DNA of 64,000 bases from Octopus sinensis (lineage: Eukaryota). The notes beneath the pieces were generated by a model. That model was not told the origin of the DNA and did no database searches. It was given only the letters and a program-made list of their open reading frames with translations. This document shows positions 1,205 through 13,302 of the stretch, in pieces. The stretch covers positions 75,082,001 to 75,146,000 of the forward strand of contig NC_043004.1 of assembly GCF_006345805.1 (NCBI RefSeq), written 5' to 3'. The position numbers and the translations under genes were made by a program. The first letter of the stretch is position 1. The number at the start of each line of letters is the position of its first letter.

Positions 1205-3239
1205 CTACAAAAGCAAAAGGATTAATAACAAATGGCTGCTCCATGTGGGAATTTGTTCTGTTGTATAATGACAATCAGTCATGGTAGAAGGCCATCAATT
1301 TTAGAGAAGACAGTTAACGAATTACGTTGGCACCCCACCACCTGCTACTTATTATTACCGACACTGCAAATGAAAGATGAAACCAACCTCATTAGAATTT
1401 GAACTCAGAATGTAAGGAGCCAGAAGAAATGCCACAAGGCATTTTGTCTGCTGTGTTAAAGATTTTGTGAACACACCTCATTGACCCAATAACAATAAAA
1501 ATAATAATAATAATAATCCTTTCTACAATAGGTGCAAGGCCTGAAATTTGAGGGAAAGGTAGAGTCAATTACATCGACCCCAGCACATAACTGGTACTTA
1601 ATTTATCGACTCCAAAAGGATGAAGAGCAAAGTCGACCTTTGGTAGAATTTGAACTCAGACATCATTTAACATTTGTTTTCCATGCTGGCATGGATTGGA
1701 TAGTTTCACAGGAGCTCGAGAGGCTGGGAGTTTACACGTGGTTTTTAAAGCTGAATGTCCTTTCTAACTCCAGCCACTTGACAGAGTGTACTGGGTGCAT
1801 TTTACGTGGCACCAGCACCAAGAGGGTCACCAAGAACCTTGCAAGACAAAACCCCGTCAGTTGAGAAGGGGGTAGTATTGAGAGAGAAAAAAGAAATGTG
1901 TTTGGATTAAGGGTTTCACATGTCAAATTAACTGAAAGGAATCTTTCAACGGAAGGGATCTGGATAAAGTGTGTGTGCAAACTTGAGTGTGTATGTGAAG
2001 ATGATGTGTGATATATATATATATATACATACACATATATATAATCTTCATCATCATCGTTTAACATCTACCTTCTATGCTGGCATGGATTTGATGGTTT
2101 GACTGGAATTGGTAAGCCAGAGAGCTCCACCAAATTCCAGTCTGATTTGACATGGTTTCTACAGCTGGATGCCATTCCTAACGACAGCCATTCCAAGAGT
2201 GTAATGGTCACTTTCTACATGCCACTGGCACGAGTTCTTTCACATACCACTGGCATGGGTGCTAATGACATGACACTAGCATTGGTCATAACTAGAACTT
2301 CACTTGGTTTAATAAGTTTTCTCAAGCAGAGAATATCACCAATAGGTTGCAGTCACTTGTCATCACCTATGTGGGGCCCAACACTTGAAGAAGATCATGC
2401 TTCACCAACGCATCCCATGTCTTCCTGGGTCTCTCTCTTCCACAGCTTCCCCCTCGAACTTCTTCACACAGCTGTCCACATCCACACACATCCCACGACC
2501 ATACCAATGCAGTCGTCTCTCTTGCACACCACACCTGATGCCTCTTATGCCCAATTTTTCTCTCAAGACACTATCATACATGCATACTGACCATTGCCCA
2601 TCCAGCAAAGCACACTAGTGTCAGAGCTCACTTAGTCCTGCCTAACTGAGATTTGAAACCGAAACTACACACTCATTGCTCATCAGACGACTGTCTGACT
2701 CCTTTGTGCTTTATCTCCATGCTGAGAGATTAATGTGAAACATCTGACCCCTTAGGATCTTTGTTTTAGGTCTCACCTACCTCCAGGTCATACCCTATAT
2801 AACTGAGATTATCTTTCTCTCACCATCTTTGCTTCAGCTGACCAATAGAGAGCTCACATTGCTAGTCGTGTCAGCCCTTAACCAGGAGCAACAGCATCAG
2901 CCAAATGGAAAGGGACAACGTAATCCTTTCTTCCTCTCCATCAACAAAACGCACAGCTTCCACACTAACAACCACCAGTGAGCTACCAATGCACCGTTAC
3001 TATTGGCGATCACTCCTATGTCTGTGTTACAAAACACTGCCAGCAAATAAATTTGTGAATATTATTCTTTTCCTCTTCAATGTTGTTATTATGCTGTATC
3101 ATCCTGCATTTGACCGATGGTGATGCTCCACATCTGACCACTACATTAAGTAACCTCAATGTACACACACACATCTGTCTGTCACATTTAGCCTCATTTT
3201 CCCAAGCCTACACATGTCCTCAGTGGTCACAGCACATGT

Positions 3240-3738
3240 TCCATTGCAGTATAGTATAGCTGTTCATACACAGACATCATACAGTCTTCCTTTCACCCTG
3301 GGGGGGGGAGGCTTTTAGTTACCAACAAAAGTAGAAACTGTCTGAACTTTGCCCAGCCTATTCTTAGTCTAGCAGCTATCTTCTCAGAGCATCCAACTTT
3401 GCTACTGACTTGGTTACCTAGGTAACAGAAGCTATCAATTAATTCTAGGTATCCCCTCAGGCATCTAATGGACAGGATTTTCTGTACATTTCTAGTGTTT
3501 ACTGCACTTGTGCACCTTCCAAACACACACACACAAAAAAAATAGGTTCCCTGTTAACCTTCCTCTGATATTGTTGCACCTCTTATGTGTCCATAGCTTA
3601 CACTGAGTACATCTTATGGGATTTCTACTCACACCTCTTCTACATATTGAACAGGGCCATCTACCCGAGGGGATTTGTGATTTGTCTGCTTTACTACTTA
3701 CTAAGACTTTGGTTTTTGCTAAATTAACTCTAAGGCCC

Positions 3739-3740
<2 letters not shown>
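3240..3740 (-). mobile_element. Degraded RTE LINE fragment (PHD-like finger region)
   Basis: KGLRVNLAKTKVL...WPCSICRRGV...WTHKRC; matches the 22693 element. Confidence 0.85.
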
Positions 3741-3771
<31 letters not shown>

Positions 3772-3871
3772 CAATGGGCTTCCATACAGTTCCTGTTTGC
3801 TAAATTTGTTCATGGTAACGGAATAAATAAATATTTTACAGAAATGCAAACTCCAAACAAAGAATACTTAC

Positions 3872-4042
3872 TCGATCGCATCAAAGTGGGCATCTGCCCA
3901 CCACATCCGTTGACTCTCGAAATCAATAGTTAAACCAGTTGGTAAGCCGAGACCATCTATGATCAAACGTTCATAGTTTGAGCCATCCATGCCAATCCTT
4001 CCTATCCATGCTTTCGAGGGAATATCGATAAAGTACAAGTAC
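3872..4042 (-). CDS. LRP2: LRP2-like exon, YWTD repeats (YLYFID...IGRIGMDGSN...PTGLTIDFESQRMWWADAHFDAI)
   Basis: tttaaag/gtaag, 171 nt, phase 2-2. Confidence 0.93.
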
Positions 4043-5835
4043 CTTTAAAAAGAATGATTAATTGTATTTATCAAAGTGATGAGGAAGAGAATAACGAAAA
4101 TGAAATTGATAAAAAAATGGTAAGGAAAATGATGAGCATAGCAGTTTCAAACGTTGGTCCAAGACCAGCCGTTTTGAAGGGCAGGGTGCAGGTTGATTAT
4201 AGTCTTTTCTACTCTAGGCACAAGGCCTGAAATTTTGGGGGAGGTGGGGCAGTCAATTAGATTGACCCCCAGTATGCAACTGGTACTTTTCCTGCCAGCT
4301 CTCCACCTGTTATTAGACTATATTGATGCCAGTACTTGATTTTTAACTATCTAAGAGGGACCGAAAGGTAAAGTTGAACTTGGTGGCTCTGGAACTCTGA
4401 GTGTAGCAAGCTAGAACATATATCCCAAGACATTCTTCCTAATTATCTAACAATTTTGCTAATTCATCACCCTAATAAGGAATATAATAATGATGATGAT
4501 GATGATGATGGAAAATTGAAGCTCAGTACTTTGAGCTAACCACAAACTAATCAGTAAATTTTCTGGCTAAGTGAACAAGGCTGTTGTGAGTTAGGTACCC
4601 TGGGCTTGGTACTAAGAACTGGATGATCTGCAACCTGTGAACTAGTTTCTGTCCCTTCCTGTCAATAGACTTCTATTATAACTCATTGTGCATGAAGATG
4701 TCAGTTGAACATTTAGCACCAACTCTCCAGTTTCTGAATTTATTCGCAGCCAGGACTGACTTCATATTCCTCCCCAGCTTCACCACACTTGCAGAAGAGA
4801 TATAAATAATTTACTTTCTGGTGAAGCCGATTATTATTAATGGTATCAAAATTAATGACAGAATTTTTAGGGTGATGTCAACTGCTTTTCTAGGGTTTCC
4901 AGAATTCTTGAAGAGGGGATGAGAAGGGAGGAAAACACCCTACAATTCTTGCATACTGAGGTATTAAGTTCTCAAAGCAGAGAACTGGACTTGCTAAAGA
5001 GTGGACAGCCACTAAAAGTTACATTATTTACATTTGATGGATATTTGTCCTCATCCAGCTGGAAGGTACATCAGCCGAAATGTTGTGTTAACAACAAACA
5101 AGATGAGGACAAATATCCATCAAATGTAAATAATGTAAATAATGTACATAATTCCTCATCTCTTAAATATAGAACTGTACCACTAAAAGTTACCTGAAAT
5201 ATATATATATATATATCATCTCTTTGATCAGCTCATGCATTTTTTTCAAACAAGATTTTCTTGAAACCTACGACTGATAAGACTGGTTACCCAATTTCCA
5301 TAGCATATAAGTGACCAAGAGCACAACATTTCCCCTGAATGGGATGCCAGTCCATTGGCGGATTCAGGCTTAGAAATGAGGAGTCAGTCACATTGGCTCC
5401 AGCTCTTGACCACTACTTTATTTTATTAACCCAAAATGGATGCCAGTTGATTGGAGGGTTCAAACTTAGATATGAGGAGCAGTCACACTGACTCCAGTAT
5501 ATGACTGGTACTTCATTTTATTAATCCAGAAAGGATGAAAGGCCAAGCTGACCTCAATGGGATCTGAACTCAGAACGTAGAGTGAGAAGAAATTCTGTTA
5601 TGCTGCTAAGCATTTCGCCTGAGGTGCTAACGAGTCTCATAATTCATTATTTCCAGCTTTCCCATAGTTTCTGCCGATCCAGTGTCATTGACAAGGTTTG
5701 GCTCACACAAAGTCTATAGTAGAAGTTATTTGCTCCGGGTTCCACAGAAAAGGATTGCATCCAGAATCCCTTGACTGCAAAGCAAAATTCTCAATCACAT
5801 GGTCATGCTGGCACCCAACAACTGACAATATTTGA

Positions 5836-6045
5836 CCCCTTTCTTACCAAATTCTTGTATAAGAGATGCTCTGTGATTCTTTCAATTCATTTTAAATATA
5901 ACAAAGAATTTGGTAAAATAACTTCGTTATCATTAAGCTAGTGTTAGGAACATGAATTCTGACTTAAATTTGGTGCAAGATTTTAATTCAGAAGTTAGGA
6001 AAGCAAGATCCAGAGGTGGTTTCAGCCGGGTTGGTATTAAAAGGG
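5836..6045. mobile_element. piggyBac-like MITE (partial copy at about 39457-39650)
   Basis: ccccttt...aaaaggg ends flanked by degenerate TTAA (ttga/ttca); the homolog at 39457 starts ttaacccttt. Confidence 0.55.
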
Positions 6046-6424
6046 TTCATCAGCCGTTTTATAATGAATGGACTTGTACAGGGTTGTCTGTCCTGCTAAA
6101 AATTACAATCAAAATCCTCCTCAAATCCCATCCCACTTTCTGAAAAAGAAAGGCTAAATTGGGAATGCGGTGGGGGGAGATGATGGAATGGTCATACTTG
6201 GAATGTCTTAGATGATACACAAAGTTTTACTGACTTATTGATTTTTAGTGTTCATTGTGTGAAAGTAGATATAATTTTCTAAAAAGCAAAAACCAGATCA
6301 ATGTCAACAGATCTGATCAGAACCTTACGGATTCATAACAAATTTGTAGGGTTTAACACACGTCTCAAGCATTCAGTTTTCTAGCATGAATAAATGTGCT
6401 TAAAAACATGAAGGGGACACATAC

Positions 6425-6553
6425 CCTGTAGGTGGATAGGCGACTAAGAAAGAAACGTGATAAAACAAATGGGTATCTAGTGTTCTTAGACTGGTTCCAT
6501 TCAGCTCTGAGACGAATAAAGCTCGAATATACAACCAAAACGTATATAATTTA
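6425..6553 (-). CDS. LRP2: LRP2-like exon, degenerate YWTD repeat (KLYTFWLYIRALFVSELNGTSLRTL...VAYPPTG)
   Basis: ctttcag/gtatgt, 129 nt, phase 2-2; the LFVSELNG motif fits and the exon bridges its neighbours in frame. Confidence 0.85.
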
Positions 6554-6846
6554 CTGAAAGAGAAAAAAGAAAAGGATTAAAATAGATGCAATTAGTAAGA
6601 GAATAGGAAATGAAGTAAGAAGAATTTCATGTGCAGTGGAAGGAAAAGAGTCGGGAATTGAGTAGCAAACAGACCAAAAATAAAAGGAGCTGGTATGACT
6701 GAGTGGTTAAGAACTTACTTCCCAACTGTATCGTCTTGGGTTCAATCCCTCCGTATGGCACCTCAAGCAAGTGTCTTCTATTAAAGCACTGGGATGACCA
6801 AAGCCTTGTGAGTGGGATTTCATCAATGGAAATTGAAAAAAAAACA

Positions 6847-6877
<31 letters not shown>

Positions 6878-7007
6878 GTAAAGAGAAAGTGAGAGAAAAG
6901 ACAAACATAAAGAGAGAAAGAGAGAGAAAGAGATAGATAGATAGATAAAAGAGAGATAGATAGGTTATTAGATAGATAGATTGATAGATAGATTGATAAA
7001 TAAATAA

Positions 7008-7071
<64 letters not shown>

Positions 7072-7087
7072 ATATGGCTAGTCCCTG

Positions 7088-7148
7088 GGGGTTACCCTGG
7101 GTTTCATGTCCATAAAGAGCTTAACTTCACAGCATTTCTTCAGATCCC
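7088..7148 (-). ncRNA. Type I hammerhead ribozyme motif, minus-strand arm (sense to LRP2 pre-mRNA)
   Basis: GGGAT-CTGAAGA-A-ATGCTGTGAAG..CTTTATGGACAT-GAA-ACC-CAG-GGT-A-ACCCC; all three stems can form, GUA cleavage triplet. Confidence 0.6.
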
Positions 7149-7179
7149 AAAACCTGTTGGCTTAAGGCCAATGGATTTT

Positions 7180-7240
7180 AGGGTCTGAAGAAATGCTGTA
7201 AAGCTCAGCGCTTTATGGATGTGAAACCCAGAGTAATCCT
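7180..7240 (+). ncRNA. Type I hammerhead ribozyme motif (Penelope-like), plus-strand arm
   Basis: AGGGT-CTGAAGA-A-[stem II ctgtaaag/ctttatgg]-GAAA-CCCAGA-GTA-ATCCT; stem I AGGGT/ATCCT; base of stem II and stem III imperfect. Confidence 0.55.
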
Positions 7241-10200
7241 GTAGACCAGCCATAACTATTTTTATCTATATACTCTTCTGCTCTATAATGTAGAGTGTGC
7301 TCCTCTTTCAGATTTATGATTTACCACTCCAAGAGTACACCCACTACACTCTCAGAGTGGTTGGCATTAGGAAAGGCATCCAGCTGTTGAAAACTTACTA
7401 AATCAGATTGGATCCTGGTGCAGCCTCCTGGCTTGCCAGTCCTCAGTCAAACCATCCAACACATGCCAGCATGGAAAGCCGACGTTAAACGATGATGATG
7501 ATGATGATGAATGTGTGTGTGTGTGTGTCCACAAATTTTATAAATATAACTTCTCTAGTAAAAGAAATCATAATTTTCATCATAATAATATCCTTAGAAA
7601 CAATTTACCCACATGAATGAAGGGAATTACTCGTTATCCTTATTTACAATTATTGCTTAGAAATACACACCCGATTTTATAAAAATACCTGATATCTTTT
7701 AATTTTTAGCAAACATATTTAAATTTCTTTTAGAAGGAAGTACACTATAATTTTTTTATATATCTAATACTTTTTCTCTAAATAATGGAATGTATCTATT
7801 AGTCCATTAAAATGCTAAATAATCTCTATATATATGAAGCTGAAGTTATCTGCGTATGGCAGGTTTTAGTAGTCTTCAACTAACACTATCTCCTCCGAGA
7901 CCCTGCGGAGCAAGTTGACCAAAATTGACAGTATGATAGAAGACGGCTTGTTTTTCCTTCCATAGAAGAAAAATTATTTACATCAAAAAGGTGCTTTTTT
8001 TCTATGAAAATCCCAATATTTTACGATTTTTTGACTGCTGTGTCGCCATTTTACGGTGTATTTCAACCAGAAAAATGTTCACTTAAAGAGAATATAGGAA
8101 AAGGGAAAGATGGCTACTTATAAATGCCAAAACCTTCCCAAGAGAAGAATGTACCGCACAATATAGACTAGTAGTTAGCAACTTCGGGATCAGGGCTAAA
8201 TGGACATCCAGAAGACAACCAGCATGGAAGAGAAGGGTCTGGAAGCTTAAAGATCCTGCAAATGGACAGAGACTTAGAGACCAATTATTCAAAGCTTTTG
8301 ATGAAACAGAGGGGGATGTAACATCACATGATGTGGAAGACTACTGGAGCTTTCTACAGGACAACCTGTATTTGAAAATGTATTTAAAAGCTAGAAATAG
8401 CAACCAAATCTTTATAAAATCACTTGTTACCATCTTGATTATCATGATCATCCTGATTATCATCATGTAGCGTCCCCTTTTCCATGCTTGCATGGGTTGG
8501 ATGTAATTTATTGGGGAAGATCTCCTACTGCCAGATGCCCCTCCCGTCACTAACCTCACCCGTTCCCAAGGAAGGTTATATTTTCTCCATTTCCAGACAG
8601 GCTTTTCACTGAAGGCTTGAAACAAACAACCTTGCTTGTATGATGATGATGATTCTTATTTGCAACCATTACATAAAATCTATACAAGAGCACACATAAA
8701 CATATGCTCACACACACACACATAAACATATGCTCACACACACACACACATCCATATATACAGTAGAACCTCAGTTCTTGAACATCTCTGATCACGAATA
8801 AATCATAGTTTATCTCCTGTCTTTCTCACATTCATTTCATACAGTAGTACCTCGGTTTACAAACGCCTCTGATCAAGAATAAATTGTGCTTTATATATAT
8901 CTCCCAAACTGTTGAAGGAATCCAGGGTAGAGGTAGACCCAGGAAGACATGGGATGCAGTGGTCAAGCATGACCTTCGTACTTTGAGCCTCACAGAGGCT
9001 ATGACAAAAGACCGAGACCTCTGGAGATATGCTGTGACTTCGAAGACCCAACAAATGAAGTGAGTTCAGGGCTCACAGGACGGCCTGCTGTGCTAACCTT
9101 GGATCGTAGAGTGACTCGCTGTTCTTGAGGATCCGAAGACCCGACAAATGAAGTGAAATCATGCCCGCAGGACAGCCTGCTGTGCTAACCTTGGATCGTA
9201 GAGTGACCCACTGTTCTTGAGGAGACCTGTTGAGTCAAGTTCGTCAACATCAAAAAAAAAAAAAATTCAAATGGAAACTAGTTAAGACACCCTTGCTGGT
9301 GACAGGTAAAAAGCACCGTTTGAGCATGACAGTTACTAGCGTTGCCTGAATGGTGTCTGTGTCGGTGACACATAAAAGCACCAACCGATCATGGCCGTTT
9401 GCCAGCCTGCTCTGGCTCCTGTGCCGGTGGCACATAAAAAACACCCACTACATTCACGGAGTGGTTGGTGTTAGGAAGGGCATCCAGCTGTAGAAACACT
9501 GCCAAATCAGACTAGAGCCCAGTGCAGCCTCCATGGCTTACCAGACCCCAGTCGAACCATCCAACCTATGCTAGCATGGAAAACGGACGTTAAATGATGA
9601 TGATGATGATGATGATGATATATCTATCTATCTATCTACATAAAGCATGATTTATTCATGATCAGAGTTGTTCGAAAACCAAGGAAAATTACTGTACAAT
9701 GGTTTTCTTTCATTTTCTGCCTACCAAATTCACTCACAAGACTTTTGTTAGCCCAGGGCTATAATAGTAGATACTTGCCTTAGGTGCCATGCACTGAGAT
9801 TGAACTCAAGACATCATGGTTGGGCAGCAAGCTTCTTAATCATACAACCATGCCAATGTTATCTTGGGCGCACATCATCATCATCATCATCATCGTTTAG
9901 TGTGCGCTTTCCATACTAGCATGGGTTGGACGGTTCAACTGGGGTATGGGAAGCCAGAAGGCTGCACCAGGCCCAGTCTGATCTGGCAATGTTTCTATGG
10001 CTGGATGCCCTTCCTAACGCCATCCACTCCAAGAGTGTAGTGGGTGCTTTTTACGTGCCAGACGAGGCTGGCAAACGGCCACGATCGGATGGTGCTTTTT
10101 ATATAACACTGACATGGAGGCCAGGTGGGGCTGGCAATGGCCACAATCGGATGGTGCTTTTTACGTGCCATCGACATGGAGGTCAGTCAGGGCAGCGCTG

Positions 10201-10672
10201 GCAACAGCCATGTTCGGATGGTTCTCTTACATGCCACCGCTACAATTTCCATTGATGTTGATCGATTTTGATTTTGATTTTGATTCTGATTCTCACTTGC
10301 CTCAACAATGGTTACAAAAGAAAATAGATGGGACAGTCATTGCTGGAATGTCTTTATTCTTAAACTTAACACTGTATTAAGAATAACTTTTGTTTACAGC
10401 CAATGTGCATGTGTCAAGATAAAGGGAATATACACTCACTCATGCATACATGCATACATGCATACAGACAGAGAAACAGACAGATAGATAGATTAGCAGG
10501 TAACTAGCTAGCTAGCTAGATAGATAGAGAGAGAGAGAGAGAAAGAGAGGGAGACATTGTAATTACTAAGTGAACATGGTGGGTATATACACTAACCGTC
10601 TCATCCATATAAAGAGAATTATGCTCACACACATAAACGGAGAGAGAGAGACAGAGAGACAGACAGAGAGAC

Positions 10673-10710
<38 letters not shown>

Positions 10711-10856
10711 AGAGACAGAGAACAAGGAGAAAGTTAGAACAAGAAAATAGAGGATAAGATGAACAATAGAGACATTAAAATGTCTGATATCAAATAAGTC
10801 AAAATAGATGGTGCCAAAACATTTCATGCTTATCAATAGCTACAAATATTTCTTAC

Positions 10857-11115
10857 CGACCAACCCAATCGACAGCCAGGGTACATTGACCAAATTGCAT
10901 TTGGTGAAAGAGCACTTTCTGATCAGAGCCATTGAGGAAAATTGTTTGAATGTCTAATGTCCATTTATCAAAAAAGTAGAGTTTTTGCTCCTGGTAGTCA
11001 AAATCAAGGGAAATTAGTTCACGTAATCCTTGAGCTATCAATTGGTAAGTCAAACCATCCAGTGTCATCTTTCGAATATAATGGCGATTACCAAATACAA
11101 GCCATGGAATTTCAT
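10857..11115 (-). CDS. LRP2: LRP2-like exon, start of YWTD propeller (EIPWLVFGNRHYIRKMTLDG...LAVDWVGR)
   Basis: caatag/gtaag, 259 nt, phase 1-2. Confidence 0.93.
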
Positions 11116-11245
11116 CTATTGAAAAAATTCAAGAATTAATTAAGTAAACAAACAAATATACACATATATATATATTATTCTATTTATATATTATTCTAAT
11201 AGCTGGATGAGATGACTAGTGATTTGGTGTAATGTAATGTATGAA

Positions 11246-11776
11246 TCTCTCTCTATATAAACGGCAGTTTGTCTGTCTGTGTGTCTGTGTGTCTGTGTGT
11301 CTGTCAGGTTGTACCCTCACCCTGACCACGGCTTTCAACCGATTCTGATGAAACTTGACACACACATAGCCCAATGTCATAATTCAAAACTAACGCAGTG
11401 AAAATTTTGAAAAGTTCCCCCAGTTCTGAAAATAATCGATAAATTCGACATGGGGTCGAGAATCTAAGCTTTTTATATGCAACACATTTTCTGTTGTAGT
11501 TTTCGCAACTTGCAATCAATTTTCACCAAACTCATTGTGAAGCTTAATGTTATCCTAAGAAACTTAATTCTGATGTTAGTTTTCCATGTAATACCTTACC
11601 ATCAGAAAAAATCGATAAAATCATGCCATTTTGGGAAATCGCGTTCAAATTCAAGATGACATATTTTCGACAATATCTTTCACAAATTGGCAGGAATTTG
11701 TTTTTAATTCACAGTGAGCATCATGTCTGCTCCAGGGGCTCTTACATACCCGGGCAATGCCGGGCTATGCTGCTAG
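11246..11776 (+). mobile_element. Non-autonomous Helitron, same family as 25176-26130
   Basis: Shares about 215 bp of 5' end and about 43 bp of 3' end (hairpin + CTAG) with 25176-26130; different middle. Confidence 0.9.
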
Positions 11777-11859
11777 TTAAGAATAAAATACCATGCTATT
11801 GAAACATATGTATCATGGATTAAACTGCTATTCTCCATTCATCACCTTTTATTTACAAA

Positions 11860-12041
11860 CACACATACATATATACATACATACACACACACACACACAT
11901 ATACGCACATACATACATGCATACATACATACACACATACACACACACACACACACACACATACATACACACATACACACACACACACATACATACATAC
12001 ATACATACATACATACATACATACATACATACAGACATACA
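11860..12041. repeat. (CA)n/(CATA)n compound microsatellite, one of many (also (GATA)n at 6930-7070 and (GA)n at 22348-22415 and 47265-47411)
   Basis: Direct inspection. Confidence 0.95.
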
Positions 12042-12769
12042 TGATTGAAAATGGTGCTCCAAATAACAGGAGCAACCATTGATAAATATCAGCAATAGAG
12101 TAAATATATGTACATATAAAGTATTGAAGCATGGGAACAATCATACAGTTGCAATGTCTCTACTGAAAATATTATCACCCACCTAATATGTATATTTTGG
12201 GTTAAATTTGATGACTTTTTAGGTTTTTTTTTCAGAAGCAGCTTGATGGATTGGGGAATAGTGAACAGCATGGCAGAGCAATAAAGATTAAAGTTCTAGT
12301 TTAGAAAATGTTAGCTGACATGGAAGACTGGAAGCAATCTGAATATTGGAAAAGAGTTAACCTGTATCCTGATGATTCACCCTGGTTATCAAAATGCTGA
12401 CATTGTGACTGCTGCTGTTGTTGTTGTTGTTAAGCAACAAGACAGGTAAGGGTGATTAGGTGATGGGCAAGGGCTTAGGGGCAGGAGACCCCAGACCTTG
12501 GAAAAAAAAAAACTTTGGTTGTCTTGTTGTAGTCAAAGGTTCTTCGTTGACGCCCGACACCACTGGGAGGTGGCCCTCGAAGTTGCTGGAAATGGAGATC
12601 CCCAGGTCCAAATTCTTGAACGGCTGTGACAGCTGCTCAAAATGCTTTGTTAACACTGTAAAACTTGTAAGACATGACATGGACAGCTGCAATGGAGACT
12701 ACAAAGCTGTGGCCAGCAGGAGGGGGAGACAGTAGGTGTCCTGACTGTGTCCACACTCCAGAATTTATC

Positions 12770-13270
12770 CAGCATTCTTGAACAGGGCCTTGGGCTCAAT
12801 TCGGATGGCTATGTGAAGCTGATGGGGATTGTAGACTATTGCTGGCTGGAAAGGATTGCTGCTGGAAGGCCATATGTGTGGCAGCAGAATTCAGCTCCAG
12901 AAAGTGTCAGAAGTGATTGTTGAAGAGATTCTAAAACTTCAGCATCCCCTTATTTTTGGCCTCCTTATTCCCCATAGATTACAATGTGTGGGGTGCAGCT
13001 GAGCGAGACCTTCCAAGTGCTGAGCTGCTAGCCAAGGTCGAGGAGGTGTTCAAAACCTTCCCAGAGAATGCATGTGCCGATTTTTGGAGTGATTCTGAGG
13101 TTGTGGTGGAAGCTGAGGGAGAGGTGGGGCTACTTTGAGTAAAGTTATCTCCCAACCTTAATCTGGTTGATACTTTTTCATTCTTTGCAAATACTTTTAT
13201 TTTGTGAATGGGATATTGTTTTCTTTCGCTTTTATGTAAACTGTCAAATTTAGCCCAAACACCTTGCGTA
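12770..13270 (+). mobile_element. Tc1/mariner-superfamily (maT/DD37D-like) transposase remnant
   Basis: GLGLNSDGYVKL...AAGRPYVWQQNSAP...WPPYSP-DYNVWG; ends in a TIR-like aaacaccttgcgta. Confidence 0.7.
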
Positions 13271-13302
13271 TATATACATAGAATATATATATATATACAC
13301 AT

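What the first reader, a model, noticed from the sequence alone, without database searches (positions are those of the whole stretch)
7073..7254. Back-to-back inverted hammerhead ribozymes forming a 182-bp palindrome inside an LRP2 intron
Seen: an imperfect palindrome with arms of about 88 bp centred on ttggcttaaggccaa. Each arm, read outward, contains a type I hammerhead layout: stem I, CTGAAGA, extra A, stem II of 8-11 bp, GAAA, short stem III and a GUA site. A ribozyme motif is therefore present whichever strand is transcribed, and the minus-strand copy (the better folded) is in the LRP2 pre-mRNA. Many arm mismatches are transitions that allow G-U pairs. Established: hammerheads occur in Penelope pLTRs and retrozymes. 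Inference: the long hairpin competes with the ribozyme fold, so this could be a self-silenced or switchable intronic self-cleaving element. The hairpin is also a candidate ADAR or Dicer substrate.
Basis: partly seen in the sequence, partly recalled or inferred. Interest (0 to 1): 0.72.

Follow-up and report, generated by a model that had tools for sequence, protein, structure and literature searches.

The report
Back-to-back Penelope retrotransposon stubs in intron
The mirror-image sequence with a hammerhead-ribozyme motif on each strand is real, but it is a worn, ordinary insertion of a common Penelope-type jumping gene: two cut-off tail ends joined head to head, likely made during insertion and predicted to pair with each other rather than to act as a switch for the host gene.

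Summary
The palindrome, the two type I hammerhead motifs and the intronic position in an LRP2-like gene are confirmed. It is not a one-off RNA device. Each arm is the 3' end of an abundant, decayed Penelope-like retrotransposon of the Hydra type; longer copies continue upstream into endonuclease and reverse-transcriptase fragments. 40 of 85 sampled copies have a head-to-head partner, and all 35 junctions measured differ, so the mirror is built anew at each insertion. One arm ends short and the other carries a 52-base tail in 31 of 35 pairs (half expected), as in the window, and partner arms share their subfamily in 31 of 31. Both window motifs are damaged, the pre-mRNA copy more so; the long hairpin beats the ribozyme fold by a predicted 66-69 kcal/mol, so it is likely silent, not switchable. 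G-U mismatches show no strand bias. Opposed hammerheads from truncated Penelope elements are published (2014, 2021), and this scan reported the same kind of insertion before at other octopus loci. Residual interest: the strict long/short pairing constrains how these elements insert. Cleavage, editing and small RNAs are untested.

The parts
7060..7165 (-). Left arm: 5'-truncated 3' end of the Penelope-like element, short-end class (no tail); outer end merges with the (GATA)n run, so 7060 is approximate
   Evidence: profile positions 510-622 on the minus strand
7159..7325 (+). Right arm: 5'-truncated 3' end of the same family, long-end class
   Evidence: profile positions 510-673
7087..7148 (-). 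Type I hammerhead motif, sense to the host pre-mRNA; core intact, A.C mismatch at stem I pair 2, predicted cut between 7093 and 7092
7179..7241 (+). Type I hammerhead motif, antisense to the host gene; core intact, C.A mismatch at stem III pair 3 (7232), predicted cut between 7235 and 7236
7156..7172 (.). Head-to-head junction with a short self-complementary overlap (about 5 bases); not shared with any of 34 other junctions measured
7273..7325 (+). About 52-base tail, present on this arm only
   Evidence: tail at one end described in PMC8557442 Fig. 2 legend
6931..7074 (.). (AGAT)n microsatellite abutting the short end; typical landing context of the family
   Evidence: 45 of 65 short ends and 44 of 50 long ends are followed by a microsatellite
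6554..10856 (-). Host intron of the LRP2-like gene
   Evidence: spliced RNA-type contig joins 10857 to 6553; exon matches

Best explanation
The palindrome is one old insertion of a Hydra-type Penelope-like retrotransposon, made of two 5'-truncated copies of the element's hammerhead-bearing 3' end joined head to head, likely produced at insertion by reverse transcription primed from both cut ends of an AT-rich target and likely inert today. Shown: family membership, variable junctions, one short and one tailed end per insertion, same subfamily in both arms, decay of both motifs. Inferred: the endonuclease cuts both strands; one DNA end primes at the short start site and the other at the tail start site, most simply on one RNA molecule, the second polymerase displacing the first cDNA; the two unfinished cDNAs are then end-joined. 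In the host pre-mRNA the antisense arm is made first, so the hammerhead is predicted to be zipped into the hairpin as it emerges and the intron is simply spliced out. The hammerhead likely mattered in the source elements, not in this copy.
For: Family: 77 matches from 40 scored of 1336 candidates; 108 exact hits of a 22-base pattern, 0 for its control. Longer copies run from RT through endonuclease into the same hammerhead in one locus (L097, L101, L103); full-length relatives carry a C-terminal GIY-YIG match (5 of 7 tested at E up to 0.014, 1 above Pfam's cut-off); motifs agree by eye with Hydra-1_Obim in the supplement of PMC8557442. Architecture: 40 of 85 head-to-head, 3 tail-to-tail, 3 tandem; 35 of 35 junctions distinct, 3 symmetric; long+short ends in 31 of 35 classifiable pairs, expected 0.50, p = 1.6e-6, and in 9 of 9 pairs among 15 loci picked by the tail alone, one of them a repeat of the first sample; same subfamily in 31 of 31 typed pairs. 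Published: a purified Penelope protein cuts and extends both strands and starts at two sites that delimit the tail (PMC11167929); opposed hammerheads 100-700 bp apart come from truncated elements (PMC4209133); Penelope-13_HM has an inverted truncated copy with a hammerhead on each strand.
Against: No intact or young source copy was seen: arms are a median 12-13% from their subfamily majority, so identity of the two arms at insertion cannot be shown; partner arms are only slightly closer than unrelated arms (0.169 against 0.194). None of my 10 fragments from this family matched Pfam; the clade call rests on relatives and on comparison by eye, with no tree. PMC11167929 saw no difference in start site between the two strands in vitro, so strict long/short pairing is not yet explained by experiment. 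PMC3846280 explains head-to-head junctions by self-priming on an antisense template. CUGA-box letters of the A subfamily change less than expected (17 against 31.8, p = 0.002; not in the U subfamily, 12 against 14.3), which I ascribe to selection on source elements but cannot separate from selection on copies.
Confidence: 0.88

Rival explanations
1. Same family and same by-product status, but the mirror arises by fold-back (self-priming of the RNA or snap-back of the first cDNA) rather than by priming from both target ends.
For: Would also give arms of one subfamily (31 of 31) and one tail per insertion; 10 of 35 junctions overlap by 2 or more bases; self-priming is proposed in PMC3846280.
Against: Snap-back predicts that the tailed arm always reaches at least as far 5' as the short arm; it reaches further in 11, the short arm in 16, equal in 4 of 31. 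Fold-back predicts a symmetric centre: 3 of 35. Later deletions could blur both counts.
Confidence: 0.12
2. The insertion has been co-opted as a host RNA element: a switchable intronic ribozyme, or a selected hairpin for ADAR or Dicer that tunes the LRP2-like transcript.
For: It lies in an intron of a spliced gene, about 510 bases from the 3' splice site; both cores are intact; the hairpin is very stable.
Against: 104 of 182 family arms keep an intact core, so that is unremarkable; both window motifs have a broken stem; hammerhead fold 66-69 kcal/mol above the hairpin; no G-U strand bias; arms 20.8% apart; 7.7% change against the second genomic copy.
Confidence: 0.04
3. The palindrome is itself the mobile unit (a MITE-like or fold-back element, or a palindromic retrozyme) copied whole.
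For: Many copies are compact palindromes (32 of 85 with arms within 60 bases); TA flanks the 182-base core.
Against: All 35 junctions differ; arm lengths range continuously up to copies with coding fragments; ends are unequal; 45 of 85 copies have no partner at the threshold used.
Confidence: 0.03

Closest known systems
Hydra clade of C-terminal EN+ Penelope-like elements, e.g. Hydra-1_Obim and Penelope-13_HM (Craig et al. 2021, PMC8557442; seen: passages, section 11, supplement part 2 and search passages)
   Same: RT then endonuclease, CxCX5C linker, CxxC and CxH motifs, under 3 kb, microsatellite landing sites, 3' type I hammerhead with an extra base after CUGANGA and a short palindromic stem III; inverted 5'-truncated copy giving a hammerhead on each strand; tail at one end.
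   Different: A sister family: its hammerhead letters differ from that of Hydra-1_Obim (two short motifs of it are absent from the supplement); stem II is 12 pairs with a bulge; a Ser/Asn/Thr-rich insert of 100-200 residues splits the GIY-YIG motif; the window holds only the minimal stub.
Opposed dual hammerheads of truncated Penelope-like elements in Schistosoma mansoni (Cervera and De la Pena 2014, PMC4209133; seen: parts 1-2 of 4, no supplements)
   Same: Two motifs close together on opposite strands, long stem II, short stem I, unpaired base before stem II, built to work as dimers with low activity in vitro.
   Different: There 100-700 bp apart and lacking stem III; here 41 bases between the cores, stem III of 3 pairs, A-U instead of G10.1-C11.1.
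Poseidon element PAc of Anolis (Frangieh et al. 2024, PMC11167929; seen: parts 1-2 of 4)
   Same: Two start sites of reverse transcription that delimit a tail; both target strands cut and extended; AT-rich target.
   Different: Other clade; its hammerhead overlaps the ORF start; the paper reports no strand difference in start site, whereas the genomic pairs here are strictly long plus short.
Metazoan non-LTR retrozymes (10.64898/2026.07.22.740005; seen: part 1 of 5; supplements closed)
   Same: Type I hammerhead related to Penelope pLTRs, no protein in the stub.
   Different: Retrozymes are tandem direct repeats; here 3 of 85 copies have a tandem neighbour and the arms are continuous with coding sequence.

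Membership tests
EN+ Penelope-like element | One ORF with RT followed by a GIY-YIG endonuclease upstream of the hammerhead | tested here: met
   Collinear fragments of a 755-aa relative followed by the hammerhead end in L097, L101, L103; relatives match GIY-YIG at the C-terminus. All copies seen are broken.
EN+ Penelope-like element | 5' truncation with an adjacent inverted truncated copy | tested here: met
   40 of 85
EN+ Penelope-like element | [quoted passage not shown] | tested here: met
   31 of 35 pairs and 9 of 9 pairs; about 52 bases against 30-40 in the literature
EN+ Penelope-like element | Direct pLTR partial tandem upstream of a full ORF | tested here: inconclusive
   3 of 85 with a direct second copy within 1.5 kb; no intact element seen
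Hydra clade | CxCX5C linker; CxxC and CxH motifs; no CCHH | tested here: met
   Read in translations of L097, L099-L101, L103, L104 against the definition; by eye
Hydra clade | RWK and DKT motifs in the N-terminal RT region | tested here: inconclusive
   Present in the relative P0013; not read in this family's own broken N-terminus
Hydra clade | Placement in the clade by RT phylogeny | not tested
   No tree built; similarity to Hydra-1_Obim judged by eye from the supplement
Hydra clade | Insertion in (TA)n-type microsatellites, length under 3 kb | tested here: met
   89 of 115 classed ends followed by a microsatellite; L097 copy spans about 2.8 kb
Type I hammerhead ribozyme | Core letters and NUH site | tested here: met
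   Both window arms, no change at 11 positions, H17 = A
Type I hammerhead ribozyme | Three intact stems in the window copies | tested here: not met
   Minus copy A.C at stem I pair 2; plus copy C.A at stem III pair 3. At family level the stems hold: 89% of cells paired against 22-49% for slid controls in 10 hand-picked arms.
Type I hammerhead ribozyme | Covariation in stems | tested here: inconclusive
   One pair changes between subfamilies (G-C against A-U/G-U, p = 1.3e-8) but not within them (p = 0.58, 0.55); no excess over shuffles
Type I hammerhead ribozyme | G10.1-C11.1 closing pair of stem II | tested here: not met
   A-U in 114 of 131 typed arms; the published Hydra-1_oBim motif also opens stem II with A-U
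Type I hammerhead ribozyme | Self-cleavage | not testable with these tools
   No raw RNA reads served; no pile-up of arm starts at the cut site, 2 of 42
Non-LTR retrozyme | Tandem direct repeats each with a hammerhead | tested here: not met
   3 of 85
MITE or fold-back DNA element | Fixed termini and shared internal junction | tested here: not met
   35 of 35 junctions distinct, unequal ends

The most novel reading that the evidence does not exclude
Every back-to-back insertion of this family is two cDNA copies of a single RNA molecule, primed from the two cut ends of the target at two fixed and mutually exclusive start sites (one short, one with the tail), the trailing polymerase displacing the leading cDNA. 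This would explain in one step the Penelope tail, the head-to-head inversion and the opposed hammerheads, and is directly testable in the existing in vitro system. I found no such account in searches; earlier notes of this scan propose much the same.
Probability: 0.45. Interest if true: 0.45.

Novelty: new member of a known kind. Interest (0 to 1): 0.2.

Why it matters
For the host gene it most likely does not matter. It shows that a hammerhead on each strand inside a long hairpin is the default footprint of Penelope-like insertions in this genome and should not be scored as a designed switch. The one useful result is quantitative: long and short ends are coupled (31 of 35, and 9 of 9 in a second sample) and both arms come from one subfamily (31 of 31), which constrains the still unresolved Penelope insertion mechanism and argues against simple fold-back.

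Tried and rejected
Rfam: no hammerhead family hit; microRNA-precursor hits are far below their cut-offs (best 36.9 against 83 bits) and reflect a generic hairpin. Neptune clade: my first guess from memory; dropped after earlier notes pointed to Hydra and the published definition and alignments agreed. Pfam on this family's own fragments: 0 of 10 matched; the Atlas gave PF26215 clusters at 0.94 and a GIY-YIG lead at 0.91 only. ADAR footprint in the retrotransposed RNA: none, A>G 100 of 2389 against T>C 108 of 2473, p = 0.78. Genomic trace of cleavage: 2 of 42 non-anchor arms start at the cut site, and at most 1 of 15 tail-picked copies. RNA evidence: no RNA holder listed on record and no raw reads; contigs over the palindrome in RNA-type runs are thin and may be other family copies, so nothing is concluded on expression, ends, editing or small RNAs. 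One search used a structure string out of register with the alignment and is void; one search is the corrected count. An automatic check for duplicated loci found none because it allowed no gaps; L151 and L155 were dropped by eye as copies of L150 and L154. A literature search for the effect of an A-U pair at 10.1-11.1 found nothing usable. A look-up of earlier findings by sequence gave one unrelated note.

Full report
1. Observation. The sequence at 7073-7254 is an imperfect palindrome (arms 82% complementary) that folds as one hairpin on either strand, far beyond shuffles (z -16.5 and -14.7). A contig from a public run reproduces 7082-7226 without a difference. Each arm, read outward, has stem I, CUGAAGA, one extra A, a 12-pair stem II with a bulge, GAAA, a 3-pair stem III and GUA. 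Rfam's hammerhead models do not find it. The host gene lies on the minus strand; three exons match LRP2 residues 3151-3195, 3199-3282 and 3334-3390 in order. One RNA-type contig joins 10857 to 6553, which places the element in intron 6554-10856. The window is G000:C8:75082001-75146000; the nearest named proteins to the repeat family are from Octopus bimaculoides.

2. It is one copy of a repeat family. A DNA search of the own genome gave 77 matches from 40 scored of 1336 candidates. Copies matched by one arm continue upstream into coding fragments; a 60-residue piece drew 8051 candidates, of which 150 were scored and all matched. In L097, L101 and L103 fragments of a 755-residue relative line up from RT to endonuclease and run into the same hammerhead end. 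The family's own fragments match no Pfam model (0 of 10); 5 of 7 long relatives match GIY-YIG at the C-terminus, one above the curated cut-off. The linker CxCX5C, the CxxC and CxH motifs and the RT stretches agree with the Hydra clade as defined in PMC8557442 (section 11) and, by eye, with Hydra-1_Obim in its supplement. I first guessed Neptune from memory; earlier notes of this scan led me to check Hydra. No tree was built.

3. Architecture. I sampled copies by an exact 22-base pattern in one arm, which does not select for a partner: 108 hits, 0 for the control; 90 loci were fetched in list order, 3 were second hits in the same insertion and 2 were dropped by eye as duplicated loci, leaving 85. 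Of these, 40 have a head-to-head partner within 1.5 kb (32 within 60 bases), 3 a tail-to-tail and 3 a tandem neighbour. All 35 junctions measured (34 loci and the window) differ, only 3 are symmetric, and both arms reach the CUGA box in 15. The 3' ends fall in two classes 52 bases apart. Of 40 pairs, 5 had an end that fits neither class; of the other 35, 31 are long plus short, 3 long-long and 1 short-short (expected share 0.50, p = 1.6e-6). In 15 loci picked by the tail alone, 9 have a partner and all 9 partners end short (one locus also in the first sample). The window follows the rule: short left arm against the (AGAT)n run, tailed right arm to about 7325. Two subfamilies exist; among 37 pairs with both arms covered, 31 could be typed on both sides and all 31 are of one type (these pairs include the window, its second copy and loci picked by likeness to the window). 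Partner arms are a little closer than unrelated arms (0.169 against 0.194) and share more non-majority letters (100 of 590 against 1823 of 19463).

4. The hammerhead. At family level the fold is real: stems pair in most arms (89% against 22-49% for slid controls in 10 hand-picked arms), the free core position N7 is the one that differs between subfamilies, and stem I pair 2 is G-C in one subfamily and A-U or G-U in the other (p = 1.3e-8). Within subfamilies there is no covariation (p = 0.58 and 0.55), and one search shows none above shuffles: inserted copies decay. Of 182 arms, 104 keep the core and 29 also keep the inner pairs of all three stems; neither window arm is among the 29. The pre-mRNA copy has an A.C mismatch next to the cut site and a hammerhead fold 10.0 kcal/mol above its best fold; the antisense copy has a broken stem III palindrome and a gap of 5.5. 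In the whole element the hammerhead fold costs 68.9 (minus) and 65.9 (plus) kcal/mol against the hairpin. One result points the other way: CUGA-box letters of the A subfamily change less than expected (17 against 31.8, p = 0.002), those of the U subfamily do not; I read this as selection on source elements, which is an inference.

5. No sign of host selection. 17 of 21 arm mismatches are transitions, giving G-U on the plus strand 10 times and on the pre-mRNA strand 7 times; the transition share is the same within and between palindromes. The window's arms differ by 20.8%. Against its second genomic copy 130 kb away (allele or paralog) the palindrome differs at 14 of 181 bases, the next repeat at 11 of 122 and the flank at 88 of 4411. 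There is no A-to-G excess on the element's sense strand. Editing, dicing and cleavage of this intronic hairpin could not be tested.

6. Mechanism. Shown here: points 2-5. From papers: a purified Penelope protein cuts and extends both target strands, starts at two sites that delimit the tail, and does not need its hammerhead, which cleaves only with protein (PMC11167929, parts 1-2 of 4); metazoan Penelope hammerheads work as dimers and weakly (PMC4209133, parts 1-2 of 4). Inferred: each cut end primes one cDNA, one at the short and one at the tail site, most simply on one RNA; the unfinished cDNAs are end-joined head to head. Fold-back, proposed in PMC3846280 (passages), fits less well: the tailed arm reaches further 5' in 11 pairs, the short arm in 16, neither in 4, and centres are rarely symmetric.

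7. Novelty. Opposed hammerheads from truncated Penelope elements were reported in 2014, the inverted truncated copy with one tail in 2013 and 2021, and a Hydra element with a hammerhead on each strand is tabulated in the 2021 supplement. This scan has noted the same kind of insertion at other octopus loci (21 findings). The family itself is not the one in that supplement, so it is a new member of a known kind. Supplements of the 2014 paper were not read and those of the 2026 preprint are closed; either could list this family. The coupling of long and short ends is the part worth keeping; searches showed no paper that quantifies it.

8. Verdict. Observation confirmed with corrections; interpretation partly supported; ordinary decayed insertion; interest 0.2.

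Noticed in passing
window 6522-6543 (exon 6422-6553, minus) against L037: The window and its near copy differ at 10 of 22 bases in this block, changing 7 codons of a YWTD propeller blade, while the rest of the exon is identical. DNA contigs of two runs hold one form each; RNA-type contigs of three studies splice to the L037 form. Could be deeply diverged alleles or paralogs of the receptor's ligand-binding surface.
   Followed up: partly
L037 (G000:C8:74953000-74962999) against window 2426-6877, 7028-7448, 10486-13295: A second copy of this part of the gene lies about 130 kb away, 97-99% identical in most blocks but 91-94% around the palindrome; uncollapsed haplotype or segmental duplication not decided.
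   Followed up: partly
L089-L104, between the VY and YIG halves of the endonuclease motif: This family carries a Ser/Asn/Thr-rich insert of 100-200 residues inside the GIY-YIG motif, varying between copies; Hydra-1_Obim has a short one at the same place, and Asn-rich inserts are described at other positions in rotifer Penelopes.
   Followed up: partly
window 5019-5138: Perfect 37-base inverted repeat with a 46-base spacer in the next intron.
   Followed up: no
window 9041-9223 and 5342-5537: Two-copy tandem units of 92 and 95 bases inside introns; the first begins with a CGAAG motif and was not examined for ribozyme features.
   Followed up: no
window 7327-7510, 9441-9619, 9873-10046: Copies of a very abundant repeat ending in (GAT)n; the copy at 7327 starts directly at the element's tail, and the copies at 7414-7510 and 9875-9971 are inverted, a further possible intronic duplex.
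   Followed up: no
L098:5915-6376 minus: Endonuclease fragment of a different, more distant Penelope-like family next to a copy of this one.
   Followed up: no
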